DNA from: a virus
Strand: one strand, 5' to 3'
IMG/VR virus record: IMGVR_UViG_3300042486_001390
Span: 1-64,000 of that record
DNA length: 64,000 nucleotides
Positions 5,079 through 29,448 of this stretch are shown here, piece by piece (positions within the stretch are counted from its first letter, which is position 1; each line of letters opens with the position of its first letter). Under the pieces are notes generated by a model. The model searched no databases. It saw only the letters and a list, made by a program, of their open reading frames with translations, and was not told the DNA's origin. The position numbers and the translations under genes were made by a program.

Positions 5079-5118
5079 AGGTCAAGTCTTTGATTTTGTC
5101 AATATGTTTGATTTTAAG

Positions 5119-5167: not shown

Positions 5168-5177
5168 TATATTAGAT

Positions 5178-10076: not shown

Positions 10077-10511
10077 CTATGATTTTACCACTCCTGAAGC
10101 AGGTACTCGATAAACCAGTACAGGCGGGTATTCATGAATATAGGTCTTCATCACGCCATTTATTGAGTCAGCATGAATATACTCCCCATCTCCTAAATAG
10201 ATGCCTACATGACCATCTACCCCTGACTTATGGAACATTAGAACATCACCTTTACACAGATCACCTTCAACCCTATCTAGTAAGCGATCAAGAAATTTGA
10301 CTAAGAAGTTATTCCGGGGAATCCGTTCGTAGTTTTCAATAATGAAATCATGGGGCAAGAATCCGACTTTAATCCCCACGCCAGCGATAAATCCTACACA
10401 ATCGGTTCCAATACCTTTGAGGGATTGACCATGAAACCAGGGAGTACCGAGCCATTCAAGAGCTTCGGTAACAATTTGATTACCCAAAGAATCGTTTTTT
10501 AGTTCGTTCAT
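10077..10511 (-). CDS. NlpC/P60 phage tail peptidase
   Basis: WLGTPW, GTDCVGF (catalytic Cys), HVGIY and IHA; follows the TMP. Confidence 0.9.
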   Translation of the reverse strand: MNELKNDSLGNQIVTEALEWLGTPWFHGQSLKGIGTDCVGFIAGVGIKVGFLPHDFIIENYERIPRNNFLVKFLDRLLDRVEGDLCKGDVLMFHKSGVDGHVGIYLGDGEYIHADSINGVMKTYIHEYPPVLVYRVPASGVVKS

Positions 10512-13500
10512 TTTGTGTATTTTCCCGTTCTTTTAATTGATTCAAACTATAACCCATATCATTCCGTGATTCTACAGTCACGTTATTGGTGTTATTAATT
10601 ACCAAAGACTGATTAGAGTTATTGTTATTTGAGGTTGTGGAGTAATTAGGCTTACCCCCGACAAATCCCCCATTAGCATAGTTCTTAATAGGAGCATTAT
10701 TTCTGTAGTCTAGATAAGCTTCTGTTTCTTTAGGGGTAAGAACCAATTCGCCTTCATTAGCTACGATTAATCGAGGTTTTCGGCCTCCCGACATTGCTCG
10801 TTCGCGCTGAAAAGCTGAAATGATATTTTTCTCTATCGGAGCATTGGCATCCCCAACTTTTCCACCATCACTAAATAGGCTGAATCCTGTACCTAGAGAA
10901 AAGGCAGAAGCCGGAGCAGAAGCAAAGCTAGAGGCTCCTATACTACCAAGTGACCCAATCGAACCAAGTCCGCCTAGTCCCCCACTAAAAATCCCTGTTA
11001 TTCCACTAAGTAGCCCGTTAAATAAGCCACCTCCGCCACCTCCCCCAAAAATAGAGGAAAAGATGTTACCTACTGGTTTAAAGATACTGTTTAGGGCATT
11101 AGTAAAGAAGTTGCCTACTGGCCCGATGATTGCATTAAATACTGACTCAAATGCCTGAGTTATTGGTTTAGTAAAACCATCGATAGCAGAAGTTAGGGCA
11201 TCGATAGCAGGCTTGGTAATACCCTCGACAAATTTAGTTGCAATATTTAAGCCAAGACTACTAAAAGCTGATCCTATTCCTTTTCCTTCTCTAATATCAG
11301 AGAAAAAGCTTTCAGCTGCGCCACGATTTGGAGAAGCGTCTAACTCCGCTCGTTCTAACCTTAATTCTGCAAGCTTTTCCCATTCTGATCGGATATTGGC
11401 CACATATTCAGCGTATTGTGGTAAGTCTTTGTAAGGTTCTAAATAATCCTCTAATTCCTCTTTTTCTTTTTGTAGGCTAATACGTTCAGCAAAGATAGCA
11501 GAATCATCAAATAAAGTCGGTCGAGACTGAAATTCTAGTTGCATTCTTTGGACAGTTAAATCATTTAACCGATCACGAATGCTCCTGACTGTATCTCTGG
11601 TTTTTCTAAATGATGCTTCTAAGGTAGCTACTCCCTGATTCTTGCCTAATTGTTCAATTGCTTGATCGAGAATTCTTACCCGTTCTTTAGCTAATTCAGC
11701 GTTTTTAGCTAAAACCTCGATACTATCTGTCATCTCTTTGACAAATTCAGGGGGAAGAGCTATACCTTTTTCTTGAAATTCTCCTAAGATTTCTTTTATT
11801 GCGTCGCTGTATTTTTTTTGAGCGTCAGCATTTAAAAGTAAAGTCCGTCGCTGGTCTTGCAAGGATTCAATTTGAGAGCGATATTGACGAGAAACTTCTG
11901 TGGCAGACTTATTAATTTCCTCTTGAACCGTTAAATAGCCTTTAGAATTTATTGTTAAATCGGTAACGCTTTCAGATGCGTCACGAATAGTTCTATTTAA
12001 GTTGCGAGCTTCTTCCTCTTGCTGCTGTCTAAATTTTATTGATCTGTCAAGAGCATTGTTTAGATTTTGTTGCTCTTCTAGTCGTCTTAAAAGCTCGTCA
12101 GCGTTTTGGTTGGCTGTTTCAGCGTTGCGAATTTGATCAGCGGCCGCATCAAGATTACCCGTAGGAAGATTAGGAACGGGCGGTAAATTAGGACTCTGGA
12201 AGTTAATCGGATTGTCTTTAGGAACCGGTGGTAAATCGGCATCCCAGAAGTTATCTTGATTTTGATTAGGTAAAGTTGGTAATTGGGCTATAGGTGGGGG
12301 ACTACTAAATTCTGGACCACCTTTTCCTTCTTTTGTTTCTTCTTTTGTTAAAACACGGGGAGGTTGTAAAACAGGAACAGAAGTGGGCAAGGGGACAGGA
12401 GAAGGGTTAGGTGTGGAGTCTTTAATGGATTGGCTAATTGCATTAGTAGCATTAGTTATTATTGTTCGATTATTTAGTTGATTGCCGTTAATGTTTGCAT
12501 AAGCAGTTACAATATATTCTTTCCCATTAATGTTTACCAGTCCAACGTTACCAATAACTTTAGAGTTATTTCCAATTTTTCCGCCGATTTCATTATTGTA
12601 CTTAAAATTTCTTGTTTGTCTCAGAGATTGTTCAGCTAATTGACTTGCAGGATCTTGATTTTTAATTAAAGACTGCATAGCTAACGTTACGTCTTGTGCT
12701 GTTGAAATGTTTGGAGTTCCACTGCCTGGTATATTTAAATACCTAGAAATAGTAGTGTTTTTATAACCTTCTTTTTTGGCTAATTCTGTAGCTCTGGTTA
12801 GCCCACCTAGCTGATCAATTAAAACATTAGTTGCCGTATTATCTGACTTTTCTAGCATTAATTGTATTAACTGTTCAACTGTTCTAACTTGATTGGCTTT
12901 TAATTGTCCGTGTGGATCAACCAAAGGCAATTTTATAGCGATAGCATCTTTTAAGGAAAGTTTTCCGCTTGTTATTTCTTTGGCAATCAAATCAGCAATA
13001 ATAACTTTAATTGTACTAGCTGGCGACGCTGGGGGTGTTTGAGCATTTTTAGAATATACAGTTTTTCCGCCAACTTCTTGAACTAAAACAGATTGAATAT
13101 TTTTTGGTAATCTGTTAGTGATTTGTTGCTGAACTGATGGAGAAGGGTTAGGGGTGGAAGTTGATGGAGTGGGTGAACCACCTTGATTTCTTCTGATTTG
13201 TCGAATACGGTTTGATGCTCCGCTGTTAGCAGGATTGCCGTCATATCGCAGTGCGTCTAGTTCGGATTGAGTACGAGGGGCATTTGGTTGGTATTTTCGT
13301 AAAGACTGATCGTAAACCTTTAACAGGTCTTCCATCCGTTTCATACCTTGCCCTGGGTAATTAGCCCCTGGGAAAGATGCCCATTCTGTGCGGGTTGCGT
13401 TAATTGCCCCAGGAATATCTCCCTTAAGAAGCTCGTCCAATCCACCTCTCATTAAAATACGGCTTAATGCGACTAAATCTTGAGAGAAAGAAGAAAAATC

Positions 13501-16500
13501 TTTTAATCCTAATTTCGCTTTTTCTTCATCCCATGTAAAATCCATGATCTGGTATCTTCCAGATGCCGATGAAGTGGTTGATCCAAACGGGATTCTTCGG
13601 CGTGGATGGTCTGCAAAAGAACTAAATTGTCCATGGCCAAAAAGGGTGTTATATCCTTGATTTGGCATCTTGGCAGTACCTTCTGCGTAAGCAATAACAT
13701 CAAGAAAGGCTTTGACGCGAGGATTGTTTAAATGCTGAGATAATTCTTGACCGCGTGGTGTTAATCCTTTGGGAATTGAAGACGACTGTGGCGGTGTCGG
13801 CGGTAAAAACCCTCCCCCATTCCACACAGGAGCAGGGGTGAAATTACTGGGAGCCGGTAATATTATTCCTTCCTTAGCTTTTCTAATTGCCTCAGCAGTT
13901 TCCTCTATACTTTTTACTAAGTCTTCTCCAGAAGTCTTGATATTTGGGGGAATAGCCACTAACTCAGAATTGATTAATTTAATTGGCTCTGGAAGTGTAT
14001 TAAGATTTGTGACAATATCCTTGATTGATTGGGGAATAAAGCCTAATTCTTTATTGGTTTGTCGGATTAAATCAGCTAGAGTACGATTGAGGTTTTCTTG
14101 AGTCCGTTTAATATCCTCAATCGTTCTCAGTCTATTTCTTTCAGCGTCTTGCTGTTGCTCTTGTAGATTACGGATATTTCTTAGAGTAGAGATATAGGAA
14201 GTTTCTATTTCCTCGGTTCGGGATTGGAAGGTGCGTCCGCGACTGGCAAGGTCAGCTTGTCCCTGGACAAATTCTAGGAAAATTTCACCTAATTCTTTAC
14301 CAGCGTCGCTTGTACCGGGTATCAATAACCGATTTTTAACTTGCTGTACCCTGATTCTATCAGTCGTATCTAGTAACTGATTTTGGGCATTCAAGAGGTT
14401 CTTATCGAGTTCCCTGACTAAATCACTGTAACTTTCAGATAGGGAACGATTCTCTTTAAATGCTGACAGTTGAGCGTCTTCAATCTGTCTTCTATAATCT
14501 TCAATCTGACGATTAAAGTCGATTATCTGACGGTCAAGGTTGCGGTAATAGTCTTGTATTTGTTCTTGCTGATCTCTTAAAGATAGTTCGGTTTCAGCTA
14601 TTTGCTGTGTGATATTTGCAATAGCTGTTTTTACTGCTAAAGGATCATCTACGTTTAATACTAATTTTTCTTGCTCTAAGGCTAATTGATTATAAAGAGC
14701 CGCTAAGTTTATCTTGGTTTGTTCCAGTCCGTAGCTAATATTTTGACTGGAGGAGGTTTTATTAGCTAGATTAGTGAGTTGTTCTGCTTTAACAATTTCT
14801 CCACTAGCTTGTTTTTCTTGTATTTGTCTTTTCTTTCTTTCGACAATAATCTCCCGACTAATTTGCTGAATTTCTCTCTCAGTGTTTAAAATATCTCGTC
14901 GAGCAGTTGCGTATTCTTTAGCCTGATTTAAAATAGCTCTTAAAGCGGCGTTGTCTTTTAGGTCAGATTCATACTGATCCATTATTTGCTGAATAGCATC
15001 AGGAGAGAGTAAATTTTCAGCAATTGCTTCACCAAAACTCGCTACATTTAGCTGTTTTAAGTCTTCTTTAAAGTAAGTGCTTAAAACTTTATTGGCAGAT
15101 TCAGATAGCCTTTCGTTTAAAATATTAGAGATAGAGTTAGCTGAATTGCCTAAAGTGGCAATACGCTCTTTAGCAGTCTGTAAGCTTTCTTCTTGAACTT
15201 CAACATTAAACTGAAATTCATTAATTTTCCCTGATGCAAATTGTTGATTTAATCCAATTGAACGACTTAAACTATTTCCTTCATTAGCAAAATTAGCATT
15301 AGCTCTTGTTCTTATAGCAAGATCAAAGGCAACTTGTAATTTTCTATATTCTTTTTCTTGGTCTTTCAAGACTTGTAGATAATCTTGTTCCGCTTTTTTT
15401 AGTTGACCAATTATAGTCAAGAGGTCTATTTTACGTTGTTTGTAAGCAATATCAGTTATATCTTTATTCTTAAAGCTTTGCTCTAACGATGCTAACGCTA
15501 TCTCATATTGTTGAAGGTCAGCAGTAATTCTTGACCCAACGGGACCTAACTGTTTATTAATTAGCTCCTGTTCTTGCTTCATTAAATCCTGCTCTCGCTG
15601 GTTAAATTCAGCTACAGATCGGTCGTTTCCTTTTGCGCTTGCAATTGTTCTTTCTGCTCTGACTAAAGCTAAATTATTTCTGATTTCTTGTAATTCAGAT
15701 GAAAATTGCTTGCTACCTGAAAAATTAGATAAAGTGTCTTGATATTCTTTGAGATTTCCGACTCCAGTAGCCAGAGATTTATCAATGTTTTCTAGTCCTT
15801 GTCGTAATTCTAATAGTGACATAAGCCATTTAGAATTATAAACAAGCCCTAGTGTTAGAACATTAAAAAACTTTTCTCCTCCAGACAATTCCATGTCAGG
15901 CAAAAAGCTTGTTAAACCTTTGCGATTACTGTTATCGGTTTTGTTTTGCCAAACATCAAGAGCTTTTTTAGACTCTTCTAGGGTTCTTACAGCTTGTTTT
16001 AGTTCTTCGCTACCAGCATTTAATGCGTTATAAACAAATTGAATACCAGTTATCACCGCAGTAGGGATAGCCAATGCTTTAATTAATCCTATTCCTGCTA
16101 AAGTAGCAAGGTTTATAGATACTTTTAGTTTACCCATGGCTGTAGCTGTAGATAGAGACGCTACTCCGGCAGCTTGTAAGGATGCACTCATAGCAGCACT
16201 GGCAACGGCTCCTAACCGACCAGCTGCCGCAAATTGCATGACTGATTTTCCTAAGAATCCCATGACTGACAGTAACCCTGCGGCTCCCACTGATGCCACC
16301 GTCCCTAGATTGTCATTTAAGGTACTTAAGCCGGCATTTAATGCCTGTAAAGCAGGGTAAGCGACTACTCCAATTTTTTCCCCTAACTGCATTTGAAGCT
16401 GTTCGGTATTGTTCTGGAATCGAGAGATTTCCGATTGTAAAGTTCCGGTAGAAAGAGAAAGACCTCCAGCACTCATCCGTTTATATTCAGCCGCTAATCG

Positions 16501-19500: not shown

Positions 19501-22500
19501 GCGATTGTATTGGTCTGGTGTAAAGCTAGACAAAGGATTTGTTATTATCTCGCTTGGATTTCTCCAAAAAGCACCAGAGTCACCTCTAGTAAATGTTGAT
19601 CGGTTGGCAATTTTTGCTATATCGAGCATTATTTCAGCATCGCCATAGTAATCATTTCCTTTGATCGGTTCGGAAAAAGAGTTAATTGCGCTATAAGCAA
19701 CAGGTTCCTTGAAAACTTGTTTTTCAAAATCAAATCTGTCTCTTCTTAAACTCCATTGATTAAAAGTAGGGTCTATTCCTTGTGTTAAAATAGCTTGGAG
19801 ATTTGCAAAAGCTGTTTTATGTCCAGCGTAAAAATTAGATAATTGCTTAAGTCTAATACTAGCAGAAGCTAACGCATTTTCCGATGGCAAGCTTGATTCA
19901 ATTAATCGTGTAGGGGTAGGATAAGAAATAATATCATTTTTTGGGGGTTCAACAGGAGTAAAAGTTTTTGATAGAGGGAATTTGCTTAATTTTTTTTCTA
20001 GTAGCCCGTCAATTGGTTTACCTTCCCACCCCATCATTTTCGCTTCAACAGCTAAATCTTTTAAGTTAGGAATATTTACATCAAAATAAGATTGAATAAT
20101 TTTTTCAATATCGCCAAGTGATAAACCTGATTCAAATCCTTTAACAACTTCATTAGCTAAACTCCGAAAATCAAAAGAAGAAATTCCTTTTTCTATTCCA
20201 ATTGCCACACCTTTAATTAGGTTTTCTCCCGCTTCTTCCCCCTTCCAAGATGGTGAAGCATTTCCCAGCCCTTTATCAATTTGATCTACTATTTTAAGAG
20301 CGTTCTGGTAGGCGATGTCGCTTGCGCTAGTATCCTTTAATCCTTTTTCTAAACCTTCATTAAGGTTCTTACCTGACTCCAAACCACCTTTAGCTAATTG
20401 AGGTACAATCTGTTTTAATTTGTCGTAAACAGCATCAGTAGCAGCTTTTGCTGTCATACCTTGCTCTTTAACTAATGTAATTGCTTCATTAATAATGCTT
20501 GAAACTGGACTAGCTGTATTTTTAAGTTGATCAAAAACCCTTAATGCTTGTTCTGCTTGATCTGCAATTGCTTTATTTTCTTCTATGTTAATTTGATTAC
20601 CCGCAGTTTGTAGTTTTGCGGCTTTTTTATCAGAAGTTAAAGAGCCAAATACCTGTTTATCGGCTACTATACGATTTCTTAATGCAGACTGTACCTCAGC
20701 GCGAGTTAAAGTATCTGTTTGCTGTGTCGTGGATAATCCAAATAAATCAAATTGTTCTACAGTATCAACTGTACTAGCGTTCAACGTATCAATTAACTCT
20801 GAAACTACTGATTCGGTTACTTTCTTTCCTTTTTTCTCGAAATTTTCAATTAATTTAACTAACTCTCTTTGCTGAAATTCCTTAAGTCCACTGCCGCCAA
20901 TCTGAACACCCCTAAGTTCAGGTATATCTCCACTGGCGACACGATCAAACAACTCCTGTGGTAATTGAGCTAACGCAAGTCCTTGAGAAGCTACTCGATC
21001 TCGCATCGGTATGCCAGCTTTTTTAAGCGATTCTTTGTCAGCTAGATTCATGTCTCGCAAAAACTTGGCTGCATCTATAGCTGTACCGCGTCCTTCTGCA
21101 ATATTAATCATTGCCCCTTTAGCCCTAGCTTCTTGGGCTGACTGAGCATTTAACAATCGGACGGTAATATCTTTGACGTTTAAATCTTTGGCTAAATTAA
21201 GTCTATTATGTCCATTAACTACATAAACTTTCCCGTCTTTAGGATCGCGCCAAACACTGACAACTCCCGCTAAATCATCATCCCATCTACCAACACCAGA
21301 TAAAGAACCAGTCGATCCAGTTTTGCCGTGTACAAGTTTATACTGGAATCGTTCTGGATCAAGATTTAAGTCTGAGATCGGAAGTTTTCCTACCCAGCCA
21401 GGGGAAGTCGGGCTATTTTCTTGAGGAACCCTTTTTAACGGATTCGGAGTTTCAGTAACGCGTAAAGGAATATTCTCAGTCTGTAGATTGCTTGTAGATG
21501 CAGGTAAAAGAATATTCTTGGATTGTATCTGACTTTTGGCATTAAGTAACAGATTGTCAATTAAGGTTACAAAGCCGATTAAAGATTTATTAATACTTGT
21601 CGTATCAAATTCAGGGTTAGCTCTTATTGATGCAATACCCGTTTTAATTTTTTCTAATTGAGAGAAAAGGGTCTTTAAAGATTGAATATCTTTATTAGTA
21701 TTAATTTGTTGGGTGATGCTTTGTATGCCACTGCCAATTGTTTTAATAAAATCAGCGGAAATTTTTCTTGTTTCAACTTGGAATCCACTAAGTTCTTTTT
21801 TCCCTAATTTTGTTCTATCACTTGCTTTTGTTGTTAGTAAAAGTCGAGTTAGTTGGTCAGGGTTAAATTTTTCAGTTAACGATTTCCATATTTCCTCTTT
21901 TCTGGCTCCTGCTCCTGATGCTGGTACGTCAATTCCTTGATCCCTGGCCAACCCTCGTAATTGTTTTACCGTGTAATATTCTGGGTTAATTGCCTTGATG
22001 TTAGCTGGAATAGGGTTGCTTGCTGGGAAGACCCTCTCATCGAAATATGGAGTTATTTCAGTGGTAATCAGAGAATCAGCTTTATTCTTTGCCGCTTTTA
22101 ATACTTTCTGGGTTTTACCCTCAATTTTTTGCTGTTCTTCTTTGCTAATTAATTTAGGGACATTACTGGTAGCCGCTCCCAAGAGCTTCTTAACACCTTC
22201 ACCGGCCATTAACGCCGATCCAGCAACTGCTCCCCCCTGCGATAGGACGCTGATAGTGCCGTTAGTTATTTCGGTTACAAGCTGCACTACTGCTTCCGTT
22301 AGCTGTTGCCCCACTCCAAACGGCAAGCCGCTAAAAGCTTGAGTCATTTGTGTGGCTACAGATTGGATCATTTCCCGACCGCCGGCACTCATCGCCCCTG
22401 CAAGAATATCTCGCATAGTATTGACAACCGTGGCATCTAGCCCCATCGGGAGAGCGTGGAGAGCGGCCGCACCCATAGCAGCCGTTCCCCCTACCTGAAT

Positions 22501-25500
22501 AGCTTTTTTACCTATTGCAGCACCAGGTAAAGCCATTACTGGACGCTCTAAAGCTTGCATTACCGCATAAACGACTTGACCAAATTTAACAACGTCAAGA
22601 GATGTGTCTCGGAAAGCTTTTGAAAGTAGAAGGCTTGCTGTTTTTAATTCTCTTACAAGAGTTAATTGTAGTAATTCTGCAAAATCTTCATTCCCGCTAA
22701 GGTACTGAATTTCTCCCGATTTATCAGGAGTACCAAGTCGTGAAGCTAAAACATCTTCTAATTTTGATTTAGCTGCTACAGCTAAATCATTAAGTTTTTG
22801 TGGTTGATTATCTAGAATTGGTTGTTCTTTTTTTTGTTCGGGAGTATCTATTTTTGCGAAAACAGTTTCTTTAGTAGGCAAAGAAAAATCACTAACGATT
22901 TGCTTTAATAAAGTTGGTGTATATGAACCTAATGGAATTGCTTCTCCTGTTACTACAGGAGAAAGAAGAGTCTCGTTAATTTCTCTTTTCTGAGGGATAA
23001 TGGCTGATTTTTGTCTGGCATTAGAATCAGAAACTTGAGTAGCAAAAGGTTTTGAGTAGCCAGATTGAATTGCGCCTATTATTTTAAGAGGATCCATCAA
23101 TCCGTAATAGTTAGAATCAATGATTGCTCGCTGAATAGTAGTAATTCTATCGTTAAATTTATCACTGCTAGTCGGATCAACTTTTGCATTTCCGAGATCA
23201 ATTGAAGTAATTCCACCTCGTGCAAAAAATACATTTGCTGCAGCTAAATCATTATGAACAACACCCATTTCCTGTAAAGATGCTCCAAGTTGTCCTACTT
23301 GTCGATATAGAATAGATGCAGCTTTATTAAAACGATTGTGTTCTTTTTTAGCAGATGATTGTAATTCTTTGGTTAATACTTTTAGCTCTTCGATTTTAGT
23401 CGCATCTTTGTTGTCTATAGCTAACTCTAATGCTTTATTAGCTTCCTGTATTTTTTGCTGAATTTCTTTGTAAGGACGTGCAATTCGATCAAGTATTTCT
23501 TTTAAAGGACGACCTTGTGTTCTTTCAGTAATTAAAGCCTGACCTGGAACTGCTTTGTACAATAAAGGAGACAAACGACCTTGTAATTTCTCATAAGCCT
23601 TAATTTCATTTTCTGACGCAATTTTTGTCGCTCCTATTGGGTCAAGATCAGTTTTATAAACAAGATTATCTGAAAGAAGAGCAACGGCTCCAAGAAATCC
23701 TGTACCAATTTTTTTGATTTCAGAAATACCAGGAAGAATTTCTTTACCTACGGCATCAAGAAGTTTGTTGTAAGCTAAAATAGCTGATTGCTTTTTTAGA
23801 AAAATTTCAGGAACAGCAACCTGTAATTGTCTTATTTCTTCTTCTTTTGGTAGTGTTGATGTGTCAAGGCGTGTATTTAGAAAACTTGTTAATTCTCCAG
23901 AAAACTCATCAACTTCAAAAGTTTTTATACTGTCTTTGGTTTTTTGCGATAGTTTTCCTCCTGTCTTAATAAATTCATCAGCAACATCAGCTATTTTTTT
24001 GTATGCTTCAACAATTTTTTTTGTGTAAGTTTGCCCAAACGTACTTTCTTCAGAAGTAAACCACGGTATTGTTTCGGTTCTAATCTTTTCTGTCCGTCTT
24101 TTAACTTCGTTAGGCTCTAAATTTCCGGCATACCAGCTAGGAATATTAGCAAGTTTTCCTGATTTAAATTCTAATAATGCGCTGTTTATACTTTTTGCTT
24201 CTTGTTGATACTTTTGATACCCAGCAAAATCTTGAGGATTTTCTGGTAAATTTGCACCCCCTTGTCTAAATTTTTCAGCTATAAATGGAACTAAAGGTTC
24301 CATTAAACTTTTTAAAGCTTGTGACACAGGCTGTAATTCTTTTGTATCAAAAGAAGATATAAGACGAAGCCCTTCGAAAAACTTTGCAATAAATCCTTCT
24401 ACGCTTACGTTAGGACTGCCACTGCTGTATCCTTGCAAGAATCTATGATAAGGTAGAGTCTTATCAAATTCCCCTGTTTCTTTAAGTGACTTTAATTGTA
24501 GAGTCGATCCCAATACTTCATATAGCTTATCGCCTGCATGAACAACTTTTGATTGTTGACCTGGGGTTATATCTGGCTGTTCAGCATTAATAGTCTTATA
24601 AAATAAATCTAGAAAAGGTTGTTTTTTAAATAAATGTTTTTGGTGGTGATTTGATAGCCCAAAAGGAGTATCACTTTCAATTGAGTGGAATTGGTTAGTA
24701 TTGACTCCAATTCCTAATAACTTGGCAAACCCGAGAGGGTCTCCACTTAGCAACGCTGCATTAAATCCTTTAGGTGTATTTTGAGTAAAATTAAGAAAGG
24801 GATAAGCCATGGCTAATGCGCGTGGCTGCATTCCCAAATATGCTGCTGTTTGACTATACTGAAGGTTATCTGCTCCTCCTAAAGAATAGCTAACAACGCT
24901 GCCTTTTTTACCCTGTTCTTCAGCTAATCTGGTATTGGCTATTGCTTGCGCTGCGGCTGTAGAATAACCAAACGGGTTAATAGCGTTTACTACCTGCCGA
25001 AAAGCGTTAATTGCTGTATCTATGGTTTCTCCAGCAGCAAAATCAGGGGCAATCTCAGCTATTTTATCCCTAATCATTTTTTCTAAAAGATTAGGGTTTT
25101 GTTTATCAGTATCAGTTTCAGGATTTTCTACAGGAATAAATCGTTTATTAGGAGCTAATAATTCAATTGATTGAGTAACTTGTCTGCCACCCTGACCTCC
25201 CTTAAATTGCGCTCCTCCAATGACACTAACTACATCTTCCCCCTCTCTTAGTAATGGAAAACCTGCTTTTCTTTCGTTGTAATATTTTTGGCTTTCTACT
25301 GATGTTCTATAAGACCTCATCCCTTGTATAAATTTTAATAAAGGAGCCATTTCTTGAATAAAAGAATTAACAAATCCTTTTAATACTTGTGTTTGTGGCT
25401 GTGCGTCAACTAAAAACTGAGCTATGGCTTTTTTCCCCGCTTCTCGCGGCTTGATACCAGGATTTTCCGATTCTATTTTTTGTAATACTTGTTGATAAAT

Positions 25501-26343
25501 TTTATTTAACTCAGAATTTTCTTTAATTAATCTCAGACGCTCCAGTGGTTTATTTGCAGGCACTAATGCGATTTCTTGTAATTTTTGAAGCCTTTCTGTA
25601 GTTTTACCTACTTCGGTGCGAGGAAAAGAAGCTTGTGTAGCTTTTTTTATACTTCCTGACCTGAAAAATTCTGATAAAAACGTTTCATATACTTGGTTTT
25701 TACCAATTAATTGTTCATCAATTTTTGTTATTGCGGATTTAATTTTTTTAGCTGTATTTTTAGCTGATGTTACGCCTATCTCTTCTGCAAAGGATTGACC
25801 TAGTTTCTCGAAATAACCAGTAACCATGTCATCAAGAACTCGTCCCGCAAGTTTAAAAGGAGACATTAAAATGCGGCCAATTGCGCCTGCAACACCTCCT
25901 TTGCTAGAGGATATCCTAATTTCTGACGATATCCGAGAAGTAGATCGATCAATCGCTTTCTCTACTCGATCTTGATACCCAGAAAACCGATGCTCAACAA
26001 CAATTTTAGAGGGTGTTCTTATCTCTACTGATATTTTTTTTAATTCACGCAACTCTTGGTTAAGAGAAACTAATGCGTCATCTTCAGCAAATACTTTAAT
26101 AGGATTTGCTTTGTAAAAATCAACTGTTTTCTTGAGGTCAACTCTTTTTAAAAGTAAATGACTATTTAGCCCATAAAGCTGACGGTCATCGACGCTAACT
26201 TTAATTTTTAGTGGAGTCGTGCCAAGTTTAGTAACACGACGCTCTAGGGAAGAAAGCTGGTCTTTAGCCGATTTAATACCGCTATCATATTGGGCTGTAT
26301 TTAGCCCTAGACCGATTTCTAAAGTACCAAGTGATAAAGGCAT
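10480..26343 (-). CDS. Giant multi-domain tail tape measure protein (~5,287 aa)
   Basis: Likely start MPLSLGTLEIGLGLN at 26343 (TAATG overlap with the chaperone gene); tape-measure core (QIASKAVVSVEE), coiled coils, lysozyme and SxxK domains, C-terminal YANGGFVG; lies between chaperones and NlpC. Confidence 0.9.
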   Translation of the reverse strand: MPLSLGTLEIGLGLNTAQYDSGIKSAKDQLSSLERRVTKLGTTPLKIKVSVDDRQLYGLNSHLLLKRVDLKKTVDFYKANPIKVFAEDDALVSLNQELRELKKISVEIRTPSKIVVEHRFSGYQDRVEKAIDRSTSRISSEIRISSSKGGVAGAIGRILMSPFKLAGRVLDDMVTGYFEKLGQSFAEEIGVTSAKNTAKKIKSAITKIDEQLIGKNQVYETFLSEFFRSGSIKKATQASFPRTEVGKTTERLQKLQEIALVPANKPLERLRLIKENSELNKIYQQVLQKIESENPGIKPREAGKKAIAQFLVDAQPQTQVLKGFVNSFIQEMAPLLKFIQGMRSYRTSVESQKYYNERKAGFPLLREGEDVVSVIGGAQFKGGQGGRQVTQSIELLAPNKRFIPVENPETDTDKQNPNLLEKMIRDKIAEIAPDFAAGETIDTAINAFRQVVNAINPFGYSTAAAQAIANTRLAEEQGKKGSVVSYSLGGADNLQYSQTAAYLGMQPRALAMAYPFLNFTQNTPKGFNAALLSGDPLGFAKLLGIGVNTNQFHSIESDTPFGLSNHHQKHLFKKQPFLDLFYKTINAEQPDITPGQQSKVVHAGDKLYEVLGSTLQLKSLKETGEFDKTLPYHRFLQGYSSGSPNVSVEGFIAKFFEGLRLISSFDTKELQPVSQALKSLMEPLVPFIAEKFRQGGANLPENPQDFAGYQKYQQEAKSINSALLEFKSGKLANIPSWYAGNLEPNEVKRRTEKIRTETIPWFTSEESTFGQTYTKKIVEAYKKIADVADEFIKTGGKLSQKTKDSIKTFEVDEFSGELTSFLNTRLDTSTLPKEEEIRQLQVAVPEIFLKKQSAILAYNKLLDAVGKEILPGISEIKKIGTGFLGAVALLSDNLVYKTDLDPIGATKIASENEIKAYEKLQGRLSPLLYKAVPGQALITERTQGRPLKEILDRIARPYKEIQQKIQEANKALELAIDNKDATKIEELKVLTKELQSSAKKEHNRFNKAASILYRQVGQLGASLQEMGVVHNDLAAANVFFARGGITSIDLGNAKVDPTSSDKFNDRITTIQRAIIDSNYYGLMDPLKIIGAIQSGYSKPFATQVSDSNARQKSAIIPQKREINETLLSPVVTGEAIPLGSYTPTLLKQIVSDFSLPTKETVFAKIDTPEQKKEQPILDNQPQKLNDLAVAAKSKLEDVLASRLGTPDKSGEIQYLSGNEDFAELLQLTLVRELKTASLLLSKAFRDTSLDVVKFGQVVYAVMQALERPVMALPGAAIGKKAIQVGGTAAMGAAALHALPMGLDATVVNTMRDILAGAMSAGGREMIQSVATQMTQAFSGLPFGVGQQLTEAVVQLVTEITNGTISVLSQGGAVAGSALMAGEGVKKLLGAATSNVPKLISKEEQQKIEGKTQKVLKAAKNKADSLITTEITPYFDERVFPASNPIPANIKAINPEYYTVKQLRGLARDQGIDVPASGAGARKEEIWKSLTEKFNPDQLTRLLLTTKASDRTKLGKKELSGFQVETRKISADFIKTIGSGIQSITQQINTNKDIQSLKTLFSQLEKIKTGIASIRANPEFDTTSINKSLIGFVTLIDNLLLNAKSQIQSKNILLPASTSNLQTENIPLRVTETPNPLKRVPQENSPTSPGWVGKLPISDLNLDPERFQYKLVHGKTGSTGSLSGVGRWDDDLAGVVSVWRDPKDGKVYVVNGHNRLNLAKDLNVKDITVRLLNAQSAQEARAKGAMINIAEGRGTAIDAAKFLRDMNLADKESLKKAGIPMRDRVASQGLALAQLPQELFDRVASGDIPELRGVQIGGSGLKEFQQRELVKLIENFEKKGKKVTESVVSELIDTLNASTVDTVEQFDLFGLSTTQQTDTLTRAEVQSALRNRIVADKQVFGSLTSDKKAAKLQTAGNQINIEENKAIADQAEQALRVFDQLKNTASPVSSIINEAITLVKEQGMTAKAATDAVYDKLKQIVPQLAKGGLESGKNLNEGLEKGLKDTSASDIAYQNALKIVDQIDKGLGNASPSWKGEEAGENLIKGVAIGIEKGISSFDFRSLANEVVKGFESGLSLGDIEKIIQSYFDVNIPNLKDLAVEAKMMGWEGKPIDGLLEKKLSKFPLSKTFTPVEPPKNDIISYPTPTRLIESSLPSENALASASIRLKQLSNFYAGHKTAFANLQAILTQGIDPTFNQWSLRRDRFDFEKQVFKEPVAYSAINSFSEPIKGNDYYGDAEIMLDIAKIANRSTFTRGDSGAFWRNPSEIITNPLSSFTPDQYNRRPNEILEYLEVQTTGKIDPSDFLGINLGDIEEKYNIYGRKLIEVIASSLSAGVPVFAKNLEAISSMFSSDGKQSGLNYIKGLNIGLQNNNSEKYALDVAIGIIDATNKGLGNASPSWKGKEAGENLIKGVENGIKKKENQLTNKIKELTTKVVKELQKGLSNSAAKGLLATLAIASSGMPVNAQQFIQTESFKGVTMNPATTGVEVVKQVDVDKKAFQDKQAIAYSSGPMFDKFFLQDKNQQVNMIADVVQRGQVLQLSRNRAAAEERGFIGINKQGNLKFGYGGAKSNKLTNYDTFIGGLHVLYNDEVQQPANYKGGYHSSLKQQLAYEIPRPRVFFGKTKEGNLTVMESQKDMTPQQLEKYTRSMGFAAVMLPDHGNMARLTVPDKSLSRILPQSLGGTGKSTPYQLRFFERPQIESNQAKLSESSSVVTPPVEKEKNLSTSNVFDAVADRELPISLQLTANEILPVKHISRKVESADKALTNDLLEFIGNYGLTVASLLSLLGITGKVASKLKKASQRQKPLEAIPIIENIPQPKQPNNTNLSRIIDVEFSVIEKKLPLYTPSPIPDPWKDVHEIVRPIPPKPIFNSYEAIARKQVEIDDQILLNIKSQLQKVEEKVKTFKTPKITSSVQSQTSSGGMPPVPPINRPVASPDPWENIGSSGQPPNPPINRPVASPDPEPEPNKQVKSASEMAKEYLEDIKKARQLLEKQQQILEQRKKLLSEALPKQSTREEILDDWNKKRDNIFNALDSIEKAGVSSGFTDGIVTGLKAVIAQADGFINFLSVGGKALRTLDQELNAATGGMISLGKSAMAVIGGFALFKGAEFLLRPLFFAIDDIPFRIQQAVTDSLLAFTELQRIKLNLNLAGVGNVEQSLDALVARADKLGISFKESAIAYSRFKLITTDSPLQAQADNIFEGFQEALAARQTNAQQQAESFRAIGQIASKAVVSVEEFTQQLSESGGLNDALNVAARSIGLTTAQFYQQASAGNLLAQDVLPRLAAEYKRMSAGGLSLSTGTLQSEISRFQNNTEQLQMQLGEKIGVVAYPALQALNAGLSTLNDNLGTVASVGAAGLLSVMGFLGKSVMQFAAAGRLGAVASAAMSASLQAAGVASLSTATAMGKLKVSINLATLAGIGLIKALAIPTAVITGIQFVYNALNAGSEELKQAVRTLEESKKALDVWQNKTDNSNRKGLTSFLPDMELSGGEKFFNVLTLGLVYNSKWLMSLLELRQGLENIDKSLATGVGNLKEYQDTLSNFSGSKQFSSELQEIRNNLALVRAERTIASAKGNDRSVAEFNQREQDLMKQEQELINKQLGPVGSRITADLQQYEIALASLEQSFKNKDITDIAYKQRKIDLLTIIGQLKKAEQDYLQVLKDQEKEYRKLQVAFDLAIRTRANANFANEGNSLSRSIGLNQQFASGKINEFQFNVEVQEESLQTAKERIATLGNSANSISNILNERLSESANKVLSTYFKEDLKQLNVASFGEAIAENLLSPDAIQQIMDQYESDLKDNAALRAILNQAKEYATARRDILNTEREIQQISREIIVERKKRQIQEKQASGEIVKAEQLTNLANKTSSSQNISYGLEQTKINLAALYNQLALEQEKLVLNVDDPLAVKTAIANITQQIAETELSLRDQQEQIQDYYRNLDRQIIDFNRQIEDYRRQIEDAQLSAFKENRSLSESYSDLVRELDKNLLNAQNQLLDTTDRIRVQQVKNRLLIPGTSDAGKELGEIFLEFVQGQADLASRGRTFQSRTEEIETSYISTLRNIRNLQEQQQDAERNRLRTIEDIKRTQENLNRTLADLIRQTNKELGFIPQSIKDIVTNLNTLPEPIKLINSELVAIPPNIKTSGEDLVKSIEETAEAIRKAKEGIILPAPSNFTPAPVWNGGGFLPPTPPQSSSIPKGLTPRGQELSQHLNNPRVKAFLDVIAYAEGTAKMPNQGYNTLFGHGQFSSFADHPRRRIPFGSTTSSASGRYQIMDFTWDEEKAKLGLKDFSSFSQDLVALSRILMRGGLDELLKGDIPGAINATRTEWASFPGANYPGQGMKRMEDLLKVYDQSLRKYQPNAPRTQSELDALRYDGNPANSGASNRIRQIRRNQGGSPTPSTSTPNPSPSVQQQITNRLPKNIQSVLVQEVGGKTVYSKNAQTPPASPASTIKVIIADLIAKEITSGKLSLKDAIAIKLPLVDPHGQLKANQVRTVEQLIQLMLEKSDNTATNVLIDQLGGLTRATELAKKEGYKNTTISRYLNIPGSGTPNISTAQDVTLAMQSLIKNQDPASQLAEQSLRQTRNFKYNNEIGGKIGNNSKVIGNVGLVNINGKEYIVTAYANINGNQLNNRTIITNATNAISQSIKDSTPNPSPVPLPTSVPVLQPPRVLTKEETKEGKGGPEFSSPPPIAQLPTLPNQNQDNFWDADLPPVPKDNPINFQSPNLPPVPNLPTGNLDAAADQIRNAETANQNADELLRRLEEQQNLNNALDRSIKFRQQQEEEARNLNRTIRDASESVTDLTINSKGYLTVQEEINKSATEVSRQYRSQIESLQDQRRTLLLNADAQKKYSDAIKEILGEFQEKGIALPPEFVKEMTDSIEVLAKNAELAKERVRILDQAIEQLGKNQGVATLEASFRKTRDTVRSIRDRLNDLTVQRMQLEFQSRPTLFDDSAIFAERISLQKEKEELEDYLEPYKDLPQYAEYVANIRSEWEKLAELRLERAELDASPNRGAAESFFSDIREGKGIGSAFSSLGLNIATKFVEGITKPAIDALTSAIDGFTKPITQAFESVFNAIIGPVGNFFTNALNSIFKPVGNIFSSIFGGGGGGGLFNGLLSGITGIFSGGLGGLGSIGSLGSIGASSFASAPASAFSLGTGFSLFSDGGKVGDANAPIEKNIISAFQRERAMSGGRKPRLIVANEGELVLTPKETEAYLDYRNNAPIKNYANGGFVGGKPNYSTTSNNNNSNQSLVINNTNNVTVESRNDMGYSLNQLKERENTQNERTKKRFFG

Positions 26344-28607: not shown

Positions 28608-29057
28608 CTAGAAGCCTAAAAGTCTAGCAGTGGTAATTTTAAAGGTCGCTTTTGGTCTGATAATCCCTTCGGGGGTTTTGGTATAAGGAGTTAAGTGAGG
28701 CTGATCTAGAAAATTCCAGTAGCGAGAAGATTTAAGCCTTTCAATCACTGGTGTTAGGGATTTCTCTAGATTGTACTGTTTTAGGGTAATGCAATAGTTA
28801 TTTATACCTACGGTATATCCTAGTAAATTTTCGTGATAAGGATTAGGCTCTCTTTGAATAATTGCTTCGATGCCGCTATTAGGTTTTACTTTATAGTTAG
28901 GGGGTAATTCAGGAGGCTCCACCCAAATAGCGTCTATTTCATTTAATTTTTGCCCTGTAGGGCTTGTTATTTCGTACTTGCCTAAGTCAATACCGATAAG
29001 TATCTTTAAATTGTTTCTAATACCTAATAAAATATCTCTTAATTCTGATTCACTCAT
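28608..29057 (-). CDS. Tail terminator / completion protein (putative)
   Basis: Size and position between the gp10-like and tail tube genes. Confidence 0.5.
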   Translation of the reverse strand: MSESELRDILLGIRNNLKILIGIDLGKYEITSPTGQKLNEIDAIWVEPPELPPNYKVKPNSGIEAIIQREPNPYHENLLGYTVGINNYCITLKQYNLEKSLTPVIERLKSSRYWNFLDQPHLTPYTKTPEGIIRPKATFKITTARLLGF

Positions 29058-29448
29058 TTAATTTTTCCTTTAAGATTTCACTATAAGCCTCAATTGGATT
29101 ATAGTCTTCTATAGCCGTGTCGATAAATGGGCGGGCAGGAACATCTGTCACCGTCCCATCGTTACGCTCTATTTGATACCCTTCATGGACAAGAGCGGCA
29201 TGATCAGCCGTGTAACCGATTACTTTATAAACATCGGATACATCTTCAATAAATTGGCTATTTTTTAGCTCACCTGTGTCCACAATGTCCCGGGGTGAGC
29301 CAACTACACTACCGTTTTGACGCACGGTTTCCCGTGGCCAGTTCCATTTACTATCTTCTATCTGAAAGTTAATTTCTTGGGCAAACTCGGACACCATTTC
29401 CCCAAAAGCTTCAGTAGCTAAGTCTTTTCCTAGATTCCAGTTAATCAT
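29050..29448 (-). CDS. HK97 gp10-like neck / tail completion protein
   Basis: VDTGELKNS, HAALVHEG and PARPF motifs. Confidence 0.75.
   Translation of the reverse strand: MINWNLGKDLATEAFGEMVSEFAQEINFQIEDSKWNWPRETVRQNGSVVGSPRDIVDTGELKNSQFIEDVSDVYKVIGYTADHAALVHEGYQIERNDGTVTDVPARPFIDTAIEDYNPIEAYSEILKEKLNE

What the first reader, a model, noticed from the sequence alone, without database searches (positions are those of the whole stretch)
10480..26343. Giant polyvalent tape measure protein carrying several enzyme-like domains
Motifs along the ~5,290 aa: alpha/beta-hydrolase-like elbow VSYSLGG (~24890); kinase-like domain (23150-23720); ParB-like domain (~20400-21390); possible ADP-ribosyltransferase-like domain (~19330-19840); phosphodiester-glycosidase-like region (RPRVFFGKTKEG, ~18270-18900); tape-measure core; lambda-R-like lysozyme (AFLDVIAYAEGT...ASGRYQ, ~13300-13730); SxxK/SDN/KIG penicillin-binding fold (~12420-13110). 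Cell-wall hydrolases in TMPs are known, but cytoplasmic effectors suggest the TMP also delivers host-takeover enzymes at injection.
Basis: partly seen in the sequence, partly recalled or inferred. Interest (0 to 1): 0.8.

Follow-up and report, generated by a model that had tools for sequence, protein, structure and literature searches.

The report
Giant enzyme-carrying phage tape measure protein
The tail "ruler" protein of this 90-kb lake phage is one 5,287-residue, cysteine-free chain that carries a string of enzyme domains, some of them swappable, so the tail probably delivers ready-made enzymes into the host with the DNA, as one Thermus phage is already known to do.

Summary
The ORF is real: 10480-26343 on the minus strand, 5,287 aa from an ATG preceded by a ribosome-binding site. 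These are the TMP core, a lambda-R-type lysozyme and a PBP-A/class-A beta-lactamase fold, all by sequence, and an alpha/beta hydrolase, a Bud32/RIO-type kinase and a ParB/Noc-type module, by predicted fold plus conserved catalytic residues. The "ADP-ribosyltransferase" and "phosphodiester glycosidase" calls could not be confirmed. Both are conserved cassettes of unknown fold.

New here:
- The protein belongs to a family of 3,400-5,800-aa tape measure proteins.
- The ParB, "ART", "NAGPA", lysozyme and PBP parts come and go as cassettes, some between copies of a conserved SPSWKG peptide, even among relatives about 95% identical.
- All modules are under purifying selection.
- The whole chain has no cysteine, against 1.35% in other ORFs of the phage.

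Delivery into the host is inferred, not shown. The closest precedent is Thermus phage P23-45 gp96, a 5,002-aa tape measure protein with an N-terminal virion RNA polymerase (PMC10770324). Earlier notes of this scan describe similar enzyme-carrying tape measure proteins on other DNA. Verdict: a new variant of a known kind, of moderate to high interest.

The parts
10480..26343 (-). Whole tape measure gene, 5,287 aa plus stop. No cysteine.
25798..26343 (-). N-terminal anchor, aa 1-182. It is kept even in relatives whose next ~1,000 aa are replaced, and is shared with the TMP of Cylindrospermopsis virus CrV-01T.
   Evidence: P0007, P0012, P0013, P0014; H22
24577..25296 (-). Alpha/beta hydrolase fold, aa 350-589. 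SYSLGG elbow at S487, with D535 and H566/H570 as the likely rest of the triad.
23032..23703 (-). Bud32/RIO-type kinase fold, aa 881-1104. Motifs GTGFLG, VYK, HNDLAAAN and IDLG.
21550..22794 (-). Conserved module 2, aa 1184-1598. Fold unknown; Gly/Ala-rich stretch.
   Evidence: present in 13 of 25 relatives
20398..21549 (-). ParB/Noc-type cassette, aa 1599-1982. Absent from relatives about 95% identical.
20197..20397 (-). Adapter copy 1, aa 1983-2049, ending in GLGNASPSWKGEEAGENLIKG.
19312..20196 (-). Cassette called ART-like, aa 2050-2344. Fold not established.
19054..19311 (-). Adapter copy 2, aa 2345-2430, with the same SPSWKG peptide.
18193..18945 (-). Cassette called NAGPA-like, aa 2467-2717. 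Fold not established, but strongly constrained.
17401..17847 (-). Proline-rich linker with repeated PPINRPVASPDP, aa 2833-2981.
13816..17325 (-). Tape measure core, aa 3007-4176. Pfam TMP_3 lies at aa 3143-3319, with hydrophobic segments at 3086-3104, 3346-3365 and 3406-3438.
13321..13731 (-). Lambda-R-type lysozyme (lytic transglycosylase) cassette, aa 4205-4341.
12415..13173 (-). PBP-A / class A beta-lactamase-fold cassette, aa 4391-4643, with STIK, SDN and KIG.
10483..12336 (-). Conserved C-terminal part, aa 4670-5287: helical stretch, Gly-rich stretch and conserved end.
   Evidence: C-terminal end found in 18 of 25 relatives
10077..10511 (-). Next gene: a 144-aa minor tail protein with an NlpC/P60 domain. 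It overlaps the end of the TMP gene.

Best explanation
This is the tape measure protein of a siphovirus-type cyanophage, built as a carrier.

Layout:
- A conserved N-terminal anchor (aa 1-182) and a conserved core plus C-terminal end (aa 3007-4176 and 4670-5287) form the ruler and the channel-forming part.
- About 2,800 residues of enzyme modules lie between anchor and core. An old, widely kept pair (alpha/beta hydrolase plus Bud32/RIO-type kinase) comes first. Exchangeable cassettes follow: a ParB/Noc-type module and two of unknown fold, the last two each preceded by a copy of an adapter peptide (SPSWKG).
- Two wall-acting cassettes sit after the core: a lambda-type lytic transglycosylase and a PBP-A-type DD-peptidase.

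Proposed course (inferred):
- The chain lies largely unfolded in the tail tube.
- At infection the C-terminal end leaves first. Its wall enzymes, together with the NlpC/P60 protein of the tail tip, open the peptidoglycan, and the hydrophobic core forms the channel.
- The N-terminal half follows, just ahead of the DNA. It refolds in or at the cytoplasm, where the kinase and the ParB-type module act on host proteins or on DNA before any phage gene is expressed.

Shown here: the gene, its family, six folds, cassette exchange, purifying selection and the absence of cysteine. Inferred: presence in the virion, ejection, cytoplasmic location, and the targets.
For: 1. TMP identity and context. Pfam TMP_3 scores above its cut-off and PHROG TMP families match. 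A tail completion protein lies upstream and a minor tail/NlpC/P60 gene downstream.

2. It is a family, not an accident. 24 proteins of 3,162-5,797 aa match the N-terminal half. The source names 17 of them as tape measure domain proteins. The isolated cyanophage CrV-01T has a 4,416-aa annotated TMP with the same anchor and core.

3. Folds and catalytic residues. Kinases recur: P0018 has a second Pkinase domain before its core, and P0012 has a Pkinase domain in its replaced N-region.

4. Cassette behaviour.
- The ParB part is a clean 384-aa indel against P0002-P0006, which are 91-96% identical over aa 1-1598.
- The 'NAGPA' cassette is 90-92% identical in P0009 and P0012, whose hydrolase, kinase and core segments are 51-65% identical.
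- The 'ART' cassette is 99-100% identical where flanks are about 90-95%.
- Presence in 25 relatives: hydrolase 19, kinase 16, core 20, ParB 3, ART 5, NAGPA 4, lysozyme 7, PBP 7.

5. Position. Wall enzymes (lysozyme, PBP, M23, SLT) lie after the core. Kinases and ParB lie before it.

6. Selection. dN/dS is 0.06-0.58 for every module in all pairs that showed synonymous differences.

7. Cysteine.
- 0 Cys in 5,287 aa, against 1.35% in the other ORFs of at least 150 aa.
- 25 giant relatives total 111,121 aa with 4 Cys.
- Carriers of the ParB module have 0.28% Cys.
- P23-45 gp96 also has 0 Cys in 5,002 aa.

8. Company of the ParB module. It is shared with portal-fused and MuF-domain proteins, with a PBECR5 polyvalent protein, and with BFVD proteins named 'Large polyvalent protein associated domain-containing'.

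9. Precedent. P23-45 gp96 is in the virion and on phage DNA 5 min after infection (PMC10770324).
Against: - No virion proteomics, microscopy or infection data exist for this uncultured phage. Packaging, ejection and cytoplasmic action are untested.
- Folded domains of 25-40 kDa cannot sit in a tail tube of the usual width, so the model needs an unfolded or extended state that nobody has shown for this protein.
- AF2 confidence is only moderate for aa 1-1183 (mean pLDDT 64). The kinase N-lobe is below 50.
- The kinase HMM scores are far below curated cut-offs: 27 bits against 125.
- No Pfam model defined on polyvalent proteins matches the protein at E <= 0.1.
- Two cassettes remain without a fold.
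- Low cysteine is also seen in other probable structural proteins of this phage, for example 0 in 625 aa at 63183-65060. It may therefore mark virion proteins in general rather than passage through the tube.
- The dN/dS pairs are not independent. Several loci come from the same contigs, and counts for the ParB and ART cassettes are tiny.
Confidence: 0.6

Rival explanations
1. Polyprotein made for the producer cell. The giant chain is cut during late infection. The N-terminal enzymes act in the cell that makes the phage, or are discarded, and only the core and C-terminal part end up in the tail.
For: Proline-rich linkers bound most modules and could be cleavage sites. Kinase and ParB activities need a cytoplasm, and the producer cell provides one. 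Proteolytic trimming of tape measure proteins is known in other phages (recalled, not checked here).
Against: The N-terminal anchor (aa 1-182) is kept even when the next ~1,000 aa are replaced, and is shared with CrV-01T. This suggests that both ends of the chain serve assembly. No protease domain was found in the protein. Complete absence of cysteine from enzymes that would work only in a cytoplasm is unexplained; the phage's free-standing kinase-like ORF has 7 Cys in 256 aa. In P23-45 the N-terminal enzyme is in the virion (PMC10770324).
Confidence: 0.17
2. Ruler with envelope tools only. All modules act outside the cytoplasm, on lipid, wall, sheath or polysaccharide, or are structural spacers that lengthen the tail. 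The kinase-like and ParB-like folds are then inactive relics.
For: Wall-acting domains in tape measure proteins are well known (PMC6116005). The alpha/beta hydrolase could be a lipase or esterase acting on the envelope; its fold matches include lipases, cutinases and a phospholipase A1. The 'NAGPA' cassette sits next to an M23 peptidase in P0018.
Against: The kinase keeps its Gly loop, Lys, Glu, HND..N and DLG at 90% or more across sequences down to 26-45% identity. The ParB module keeps N112, H114, R116, R142 and N149 in 47 sequences. Such conservation is not expected of relics. Modules before and after the core differ in kind.
Confidence: 0.15
3. Artefact: a chimeric assembly, a fusion of several genes by sequencing error, or a dead gene.
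For: The genome is a metagenome-derived IMG/VR record.
Against: The frame is open for 15.9 kb. The same uninterrupted architecture occurs in many independent contigs and protein records. Every module is under purifying selection. CheckV completeness is given as 100.
Confidence: 0.02

Closest known systems
Thermus phage P23-45 gp96: a 5,002-aa tape measure protein with an N-terminal virion RNA polymerase (Chaban et al. 2024, PMC10770324; passages read)
   Same: Both are giant tape measure proteins with an enzyme ahead of the ruler part. That enzyme can only work in the cytoplasm. Both have a wall-acting domain and membrane segments further down. Both have no cysteine at all. gp96 is shown to be in the virion and on phage DNA early in infection.
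   Different: There is no detectable sequence similarity (BLASTP, E <= 0.01). The cargo here is not an RNA polymerase but a hydrolase, a kinase, a ParB-type module and two unknown cassettes. Part of the cargo here is exchangeable between close relatives. Nothing is shown experimentally here.
Polyvalent proteins of phages and conjugative elements (Iyer, Burroughs, Anand, de Souza, Aravind 2017, PMC5512222; abstract and passages read)
   Same: Many unrelated enzyme domains sit in one virion-gene-linked polypeptide. They include kinases, ParB-type domains, lysozymes and possibly an ART. The ParB module here is shared with a PBECR5 polyvalent protein and with portal-fused and MuF-domain proteins. 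Cassette-like variation is discussed in that paper too.
   Different: The carriers named in that paper are MuF, portal, virion RNA polymerase, DarA/DarB and relaxase types. The words 'tape measure' do not occur in its main text. No Pfam model built from those proteins matches this protein at E <= 0.1.
Tape measure proteins with wall-degrading domains (T5 Pb2, mycobacteriophage TM4, phiIPLA35; review PMC6116005, passages read)
   Same: A lysozyme-type and a peptidase-type domain sit inside the ruler protein, towards its C-terminal end.
   Different: Those proteins carry only wall-acting motifs and are several times shorter. This one also carries about 2,800 aa of other modules in front of the core.
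Sle1-type tape-measure-related effectors of actinobacterial contractile injection systems (Nagakubo et al. 2026, PMC13277306; abstract read)
   Same: A tape-measure-related scaffold is loaded inside a tail-like tube and carries a variable functional domain that can be exchanged.
   Different: That is a bacterial contractile nanomachine, not a phage tail. It has one C-terminal functional domain, not an array. No homology was tested.
TMP of Cylindrospermopsis raciborskii virus CrV-01T (MH636380, CrV_gp064, 4,416 aa)
   Same: It shares the N-terminal anchor (29% identity over aa 3-133) and the TMP_3 core lying about 1,900 aa from the start. There is no cysteine in the 4,128 aa examined.
   Different: It is annotated only as a tape measure protein. 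Pfam finds no other domain in it. The hydrolase-kinase module and the cassettes of this window gave no BLASTP match in it.

Membership tests
Siphovirus tape measure protein (Pfam TMP_3) | Match to the family model above its curated cut-off | tested here: met
   PF20155: 49.4 bits against a cut-off of 41, E 5.9e-13. PHROG TMP families match at 1.2e-16 to 1.9e-6.
Siphovirus tape measure protein (Pfam TMP_3) | Position in the tail gene block, ahead of the distal tail genes | tested here: met
   A tail completion protein lies at 29050-29448. A minor tail/NlpC/P60 gene lies at 10077-10511 and a tail protein at 2264-4525. Tube and chaperone genes were not identified by any library.
Siphovirus tape measure protein (Pfam TMP_3) | Length of the protein sets the tail length; the protein lies in the tail tube | not testable with these tools
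   Uncultured phage; no micrograph or proteome.
TMP-fused virion enzyme, P23-45 gp96 type | Enzyme domain N-terminal of the ruler part in one polypeptide | tested here: met
   Hydrolase (350-589), kinase (881-1104) and ParB (1644-1988) all lie before TMP_3 at 3143-3319.
TMP-fused virion enzyme, P23-45 gp96 type | Sequence relationship to gp96 or its RNA polymerase | tested here: not met
   No BLASTP match at E <= 0.01. It works alike at most; it is not a homologue.
TMP-fused virion enzyme, P23-45 gp96 type | Enzyme part present in virions and active in the host early in infection | not testable with these tools
   Needs virions and an infection experiment.
Polyvalent proteins (Iyer et al. 2017) | Several domains of disparate biochemical activity in one polypeptide, encoded among virion genes | tested here: met
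   Six different folds confirmed, in the tail module.
Polyvalent proteins (Iyer et al. 2017) | Shares domains with recognised polyvalent proteins | tested here: met
   The ParB module is 42-43% identical to one in P0024, where it lies next to PBECR5. The top BFVD matches are named 'Large polyvalent protein associated domain-containing protein'.
Polyvalent proteins (Iyer et al. 2017) | Match to Pfam models built from polyvalent proteins (LPD, ART-PolyVal, ddrB-ParB; names recalled) | tested here: not met
   None listed at E <= 0.1 in the Pfam scan of the whole protein.
Bud32/RIO-type small kinases | Kinase fold | tested here: met
Bud32/RIO-type small kinases | Catalytic motifs: Gly loop, Lys, Glu, HxD..N, DxG | tested here: met
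   G882, G885, K897, E913, H1030, N1031, D1032, N1037 and D1049 are at least 90% conserved in 15 sequences.
Bud32/RIO-type small kinases | Score above the curated family cut-off | tested here: not met
   TIGR03724: 27 bits against 125. Pfam Kinase-like: 18.1 against 25. RIO1: 15.1 against 22. It has the kinase fold but is not a Bud32 orthologue.
ParB/Srx superfamily | ParB N-terminal fold plus the following helical domain | tested here: met
   Foldseek: 7nfu Noc E 5.5e-5, 7bnk and 6t1f ParB, 8qa9 KorB, 1vz0 Spo0J, all probability 1.00. Sulfiredoxins match more weakly.
ParB/Srx superfamily | Conserved Arg-containing motif after strand 3 (GxxR type) | tested here: met
   In the motif NGHNR, N112, H114 and R116 are at least 90% conserved in 47 sequences. 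The comparison with the canonical ParB boxes is from memory.
ParB/Srx superfamily | Sequence-model match (Pfam ParBc, or PDB by profile) | tested here: not met
   No Pfam family at E <= 0.1. No PDB sequence at E <= 1 with a 47-row profile.
Alpha/beta hydrolases | Fold with nucleophile elbow and Ser-Asp-His in the canonical order | tested here: met
Lambda R-type lysozyme (lytic transglycosylase) | Sequence match to the solved lambda enzyme | tested here: met
   1am7 and 3d3d: E 7e-26, covering chain residues 4-143 of 158.
PBP-A / class A beta-lactamase fold | Family model above cut-off, and the SxxK, SxN and K[TS]G motifs | tested here: met
   PF13354: 89 bits against a cut-off of 22. Tll2115: 9.7e-11. 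STIK, SDN and KIG are in the translation. All beta-lactamase equivalog models score far below their cut-offs, so it is not a resistance enzyme by those models.
ADP-ribosyltransferases | ART fold and an H-Y-E or R-S-E triad | tested here: inconclusive
   AF2 pLDDT is below 35. There is no relevant PDB or Pfam match. The Atlas search gives DUF3626 at 0.93, DUF3841 at 0.90 and OspC at 0.88, but recognition is 2207, below 2300. H26, Y84 and E142 are conserved in a two-sequence alignment only.
NAGPA / phosphodiester glycosidase (PF09992) | Match to the family model or fold | tested here: inconclusive
   PF09992 gave no candidate at E <= 10 in this genome, while it rang in 8 of 14 controls. The PDB profile search found nothing relevant. 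AF2 failed.

The most novel reading that the evidence does not exclude
The lumen of a long phage tail is used as a cargo hold with exchangeable slots. In this family of cyanophage tape measure proteins, enzyme cassettes are swapped by recombination between co-circulating phages, some of them at copies of a short adapter peptide (SPSWKG). This would resemble the way polymorphic toxins swap tips. Each phage lineage would then inject its own mix of ready-made kinases, DNA-acting modules and unknown enzymes ahead of its DNA. The cassette set would be a fast-evolving counter-defence or host-takeover locus, and complete loss of cysteine would be the price of travelling unfolded through the tube.
Probability: 0.4. 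Interest if true: 0.75.

Novelty: new variant of a known kind. Interest (0 to 1): 0.58.

Why it matters
If the N-terminal half is delivered, long-tailed phages have a second route for bringing active proteins into the cell before any gene is expressed. The known route is the capsid, used by T4 Alt, N4 RNA polymerase and P1 Dar. So far one Thermus phage shows the tail route, for an RNA polymerase.

This family would widen it to kinases, a hydrolase and ParB-type modules. It would also add cassette exchange, in phages that earlier notes of this scan assign to the bloom-forming Microcystis; I did not test that host.

It gives concrete, cheap tests: virion mass spectrometry, tail length, and activity of three small domains. 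It also suggests a simple sequence mark, a total lack of cysteine in a giant virion protein, for finding such carriers in metagenomes. The two cassettes of unknown fold are conserved and constrained, and are candidates for new enzyme families.

Tried and rejected
Searches that found nothing:
- Megablast of the gene against 50,697 phage records: no match.
- tblastn of a 310-aa ORF chosen as a possible capsid gene (33073-34005): no match. I could therefore name no close isolate. The Microcystis host comes only from earlier notes.
- Mic1 was considered as a relative because of its genome size and kinase. It did not appear among the 22 records matched by the N-terminal half. Its largest ORF is 2,572 aa (PMC7156551).
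- PADLOC: only a weak coiled-coil-type LmuB match, E 5e-4, which I ignored.

Attempts to deepen alignments for aa 2100-2720:
- Word-index search among shorter proteins: none.
- Among proteins of similar length: 13, only one of them new, P0175.
- IMG/VR scans: only near-identical copies.
- JGI metagenome scan: none.
- Species-genome scan: none.
- The one exhaustive search listed only its best 150 of 2,865 matches, all on the ParB module. It gave no ids for the other two cassettes.

Alignments discarded:
- A2 and A7 put the 91%-identical L006, L011 and L014 rows in the wrong place.
- In A3 and A6 the full-length giant rows were scattered residue by residue, which gave false identities of about 40% that BLAST did not reproduce.
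- Only A1, A4, A5 and A8 were used.

Other negatives:
- AF2 on aa 1599-2720 gave nothing usable outside the ParB module.
- A family not listed by VIA-align or Foldseek is not excluded.
- Literature searches for tape measure proteins with kinase or effector domains did not surface P23-45 gp96. It came from earlier notes. 'Not in print' claims therefore rest only on these searches of open-access text.
- I did not use complex prediction, read laying or the look-up of sequencing runs.
Full report
THE OBJECT

The window is the first 64 kb of a single 90,564-bp virus record, which IMG/VR classes as linear and CheckV rates 100% complete.

One ORF runs from 26391 to 10480 on the minus strand. The first ATG is at 26343. 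It overlaps the stop of the upstream ORF (TAATG) and is preceded by GGGGAG. I number residues from this ATG.

The neighbours are tail genes:
- a tail completion protein at 29050-29448;
- a 144-aa minor tail protein with an NlpC/P60 domain that overlaps the 3' end, at 10077-10511;
- a tail protein at 2264-4525.

Three are confirmed by sequence alone:
- Pfam TMP_3 lies at aa 3143-3319, with 49.4 bits against a cut-off of 41. Four PHROG tape measure families agree.
- Aa 4205-4341 match the solved lambda lysozyme at E 7e-26.
- Aa 4391-4643 match Pfam Beta-lactamase2 at 3.7e-25. The best solved relative is the Thermosynechococcus Tll2115 protein, which I recall as PBP-A, at 9.7e-11. STIK, SDN and KIG are in place.

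Three needed structure prediction.

For aa 1-1183 I aligned 14 relatives (A1) and obtained a model of moderate quality, mean pLDDT 64.
S487, D535, H566 and H570 are invariant in all 15 sequences.
- The Gly loop, K897, E913, H1030-N1031-D1032, N1037 and D1049 are conserved at 90% or more, down to relatives of 26-45% identity. The N-lobe is poorly modelled.

For aa 1599-2720 the exhaustive search found 2,865 proteins at E <= 0.001. All of the best 150 matched only query residues 1-476, which is the ParB part.
- With 40 short members in the alignment (A8), that part folds at pLDDT about 90.
- It matches Noc, ParB, KorB and Spo0J over about 210-220 columns, at E 5.5e-5 to 1e-2 and probability 1.00.
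- No sequence model sees it.

Two calls stay open. The "ART-like" (aa 2150-2345) and "NAGPA-like" (aa 2467-2717) parts did not fold, with pLDDT below 35.
- Profile searches of the PDB found nothing relevant.
- Pfam PF09992 found no candidate in this genome even at E <= 10, while it rang in 8 of 14 control genomes. PF12294 found nothing anywhere.
- The only support for an ART is a language-model neighbourhood: DUF3626 at 0.93, DUF3841 at 0.90 and OspC at 0.88. I recall, but did not check, that these families belong to the ART superfamily. The recognition value is below the tool's own threshold.
- An H...Y...E pattern is conserved, but only in a two-sequence alignment.
- Both parts are nevertheless real domains. 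Divergent copies exist at 26-33% identity in P0022, P0018 and P0175. The "NAGPA" part has dN/dS 0.07-0.13 at dS 0.35-0.47.

WHAT THE RELATIVES SHOW

Twenty-four proteins of 3,162-5,797 aa match the N-terminal half. Sources name 17 of them "tape measure domain-containing protein".

BLASTP maps reveal a mosaic.
- The anchor (aa 1-182), module 2 (1184-1598), the core and the C-terminal end form the scaffold.
- The hydrolase and kinase are found in 19 and 16 of 25 relatives, about as often as the core (20 of 25).
- In P0007, P0012 and P0013 this N-terminal module is replaced by other sequence. In P0012 that sequence contains a Pfam Pkinase domain, and the precomputed lists give kinase families for P0007 and P0013.
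- P0018 has both the Bud32-type kinase and a second Pkinase domain.

The remaining parts behave as cassettes.
- The ParB part (3 of 25) is a clean 384-aa indel against P0002-P0006, which are 91-96% identical over aa 1-1598.
- The "ART" part (5 of 25) is 99-100% identical in P0002-P0004 and P0007, where the flanks are about 90-95%.
- The "NAGPA" part (4 of 25) is 90-92% identical in P0009 and P0012, whose hydrolase, kinase and core segments are 51-65% identical. In P0018 it lies on the other side of the core, next to an M23 peptidase.
- The lysozyme and the PBP domain are each present in 7 of 25. Elsewhere SLT and M23 domains are found after the core instead.

Each of the two unknown cassettes follows a copy of an adapter that ends in GLGNASPSWKGxEAGENLIKG. 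The ParB cassette is inserted immediately upstream of the first adapter copy. The two copies in this gene are 83% identical over 95 nt.

Wall-acting domains lie after the core. Kinases and ParB lie before it.

dN/dS is below 1 for every module, 0.06-0.58. Several loci come from the same contigs, and counts are very small for the ParB and ART parts.

CYSTEINE

The protein has no cysteine. The phage's other ORFs of at least 150 aa have 1.35%, so about 71 would be expected.
- 23 of the first 24 relatives have none. With P0175 added, 25 relatives total 111,121 aa with 4 Cys.
- The 149 proteins that carry the ParB module have 0.28%, and 27 of the 41 of at least 1,500 aa have none.
- The CrV-01T tape measure protein has none in 4,128 aa.
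- P23-45 gp96 has none in 5,002 aa, against 0.22% in 12 other genes of that phage.
- The free-standing kinase-like ORF of this phage (30217-30987) has 7 Cys in 256 aa.

I read this as a constraint on proteins that leave the virion through a narrow passage or face an oxidising compartment. It may also simply mark virion proteins, since some other probable structural ORFs here are cysteine-poor too.

THE COMPANY THE ParB MODULE KEEPS

- Of nine carriers scanned out of the 150 listed, two have the module C-terminal to a Mu-type portal domain, one also has a MuF domain, and six have no Pfam domain.
- In P0024 the module lies just ahead of a PBECR5 nuclease.
- PHROG 21, labelled "portal protein", matches it through its C-terminal profile positions 1009-1322.
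- The best BFVD structural matches include three proteins named [quoted passage not shown].
- Iyer et al. 2017 take fusion to MuF or portal domains as a sign that a domain is packaged and injected (PMC5512222, passages). They describe ParB-type domains and kinases in such proteins. Their main text never uses the words "tape measure".

HOW IT MOST LIKELY WORKS

Established knowledge, cited from passages read in PMC6116005 and PMC10770324, is this. The tape measure protein of long non-contractile tails sits in the tail tube. It is expelled into the envelope at infection and forms the channel for the DNA.

That the C-terminus sits at the tail tip is recalled, not checked. On that polarity the wall enzymes of the C-terminal third leave first, and the N-terminal half leaves last, next to the DNA end.

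I therefore propose a carrier. The C-terminal cassettes and the NlpC/P60 tip protein open the peptidoglycan. The hydrophobic core forms the pore. The N-terminal modules enter or face the cytoplasm and refold.
- The kinase would phosphorylate host proteins.
- The ParB/Noc-type module would bind, clamp or nick DNA, either the incoming end or host and plasmid DNA.
- The hydrolase could act on membrane lipid or on a cytoplasmic ester.

These functions are guesses from fold. By my own arithmetic, three copies of 5,287 aa occupy about 2,100 nm3, which would fit a 4-nm lumen of a few hundred nm only if the chains are extended. This is an inference, not a result.

COMPARISON WITH WHAT IS KNOWN

The idea has a precise published precedent, which I learned of from earlier notes of this scan and then read in passages.
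- P23-45 gp96 is annotated as a tape measure protein of 5,002 aa and has an N-terminal RNA polymerase.
- Its fragments are active.
- Antibodies detect it in virions.
- ChIP finds it on the left end of the phage genome 5 min after infection.
- The authors call the fusion "previously unsuspected".

This window's protein is not homologous to gp96. It has the same layout with different cargo, plus an exchangeable cassette array.

Earlier notes of this scan report comparable enzyme-carrying tape measure proteins in at least five other genomes, and a Bud32/RIO-type kinase in a TMP in another. Within this scan the theme is therefore recurrent.

In the open literature I searched, I found no description of kinase, alpha/beta hydrolase or ParB modules in tape measure proteins, nor of this cyanophage family. 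The CrV-01T protein is annotated only as a tape measure protein.

VERDICT

I rate it a new variant of a known kind.

Noticed in passing
window 10077-10511 (-): The gene after the TMP is a 144-aa minor tail protein with an NlpC/P60 endopeptidase domain (Pfam 3.2e-9; PHROG minor tail protein 1.2e-12). It overlaps the TMP's last 32 nt. The tail therefore carries three different wall-cutting activities.
   Followed up: partly
window 30217-30987 (-): A free-standing kinase-like ORF (phrog_18508 'kinase', 2.2e-81) sits among the structural genes. It has 7 Cys in 256 aa, unlike the cysteine-free kinase inside the TMP.
   Followed up: partly
window 6801-8486 (-): A transposase/TnpB-like ORF (phrog_506, 1.1e-76) is inserted within the tail gene block, between the TMP end and the tail protein at 2264-4525. 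Earlier notes treat it as a compact CRISPR nuclease.
   Followed up: no
window 21550-22794 (-), aa 1184-1598: Module 2, conserved in 13 of 25 relatives, has a Gly/Ala-rich hydrophobic stretch followed by YTVKQLRGLARDQGIDVP...KEEIWKSLTEKF. This reminds me of SAP/HeH or Rho-N DNA-binding motifs. That is recalled; no library matched it.
   Followed up: no
L011 (IMGVR_UViG_3300008113_009666) about 611-614: In this relative the reading frame of the 'NAGPA' cassette changes from frame 3 to frame 2, between query aa 2604 and 2619. This is either a frameshifted copy or a contig error.
   Followed up: no
L025 (MH636380.1 57277-70527): The isolated Cylindrospermopsis virus CrV-01T has a 4,416-aa annotated tape measure protein. 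It shares the N-terminal anchor and the late-lying TMP_3 core, has about 1,800 aa of unassigned sequence in between, and has no cysteine in the 4,128 aa examined.
   Followed up: partly
window 17401-17847 (-), aa 2833-2981: A proline-rich linker just before the TMP core contains a near-exact tandem peptide, PPxNRPVASPDP, twice. It is a possible hinge or processing site.
   Followed up: no
P0175 (5,558 aa, Logan assemblies): A cysteine-free giant protein with Pfam M23 and PLDc_2 (precomputed list) carries a 31%-identical copy of the 'NAGPA' cassette near its C-terminus (5059-5286). BLASTP found no match to this TMP's core or other modules, so the cassette travels beyond the close family.
   Followed up: partly
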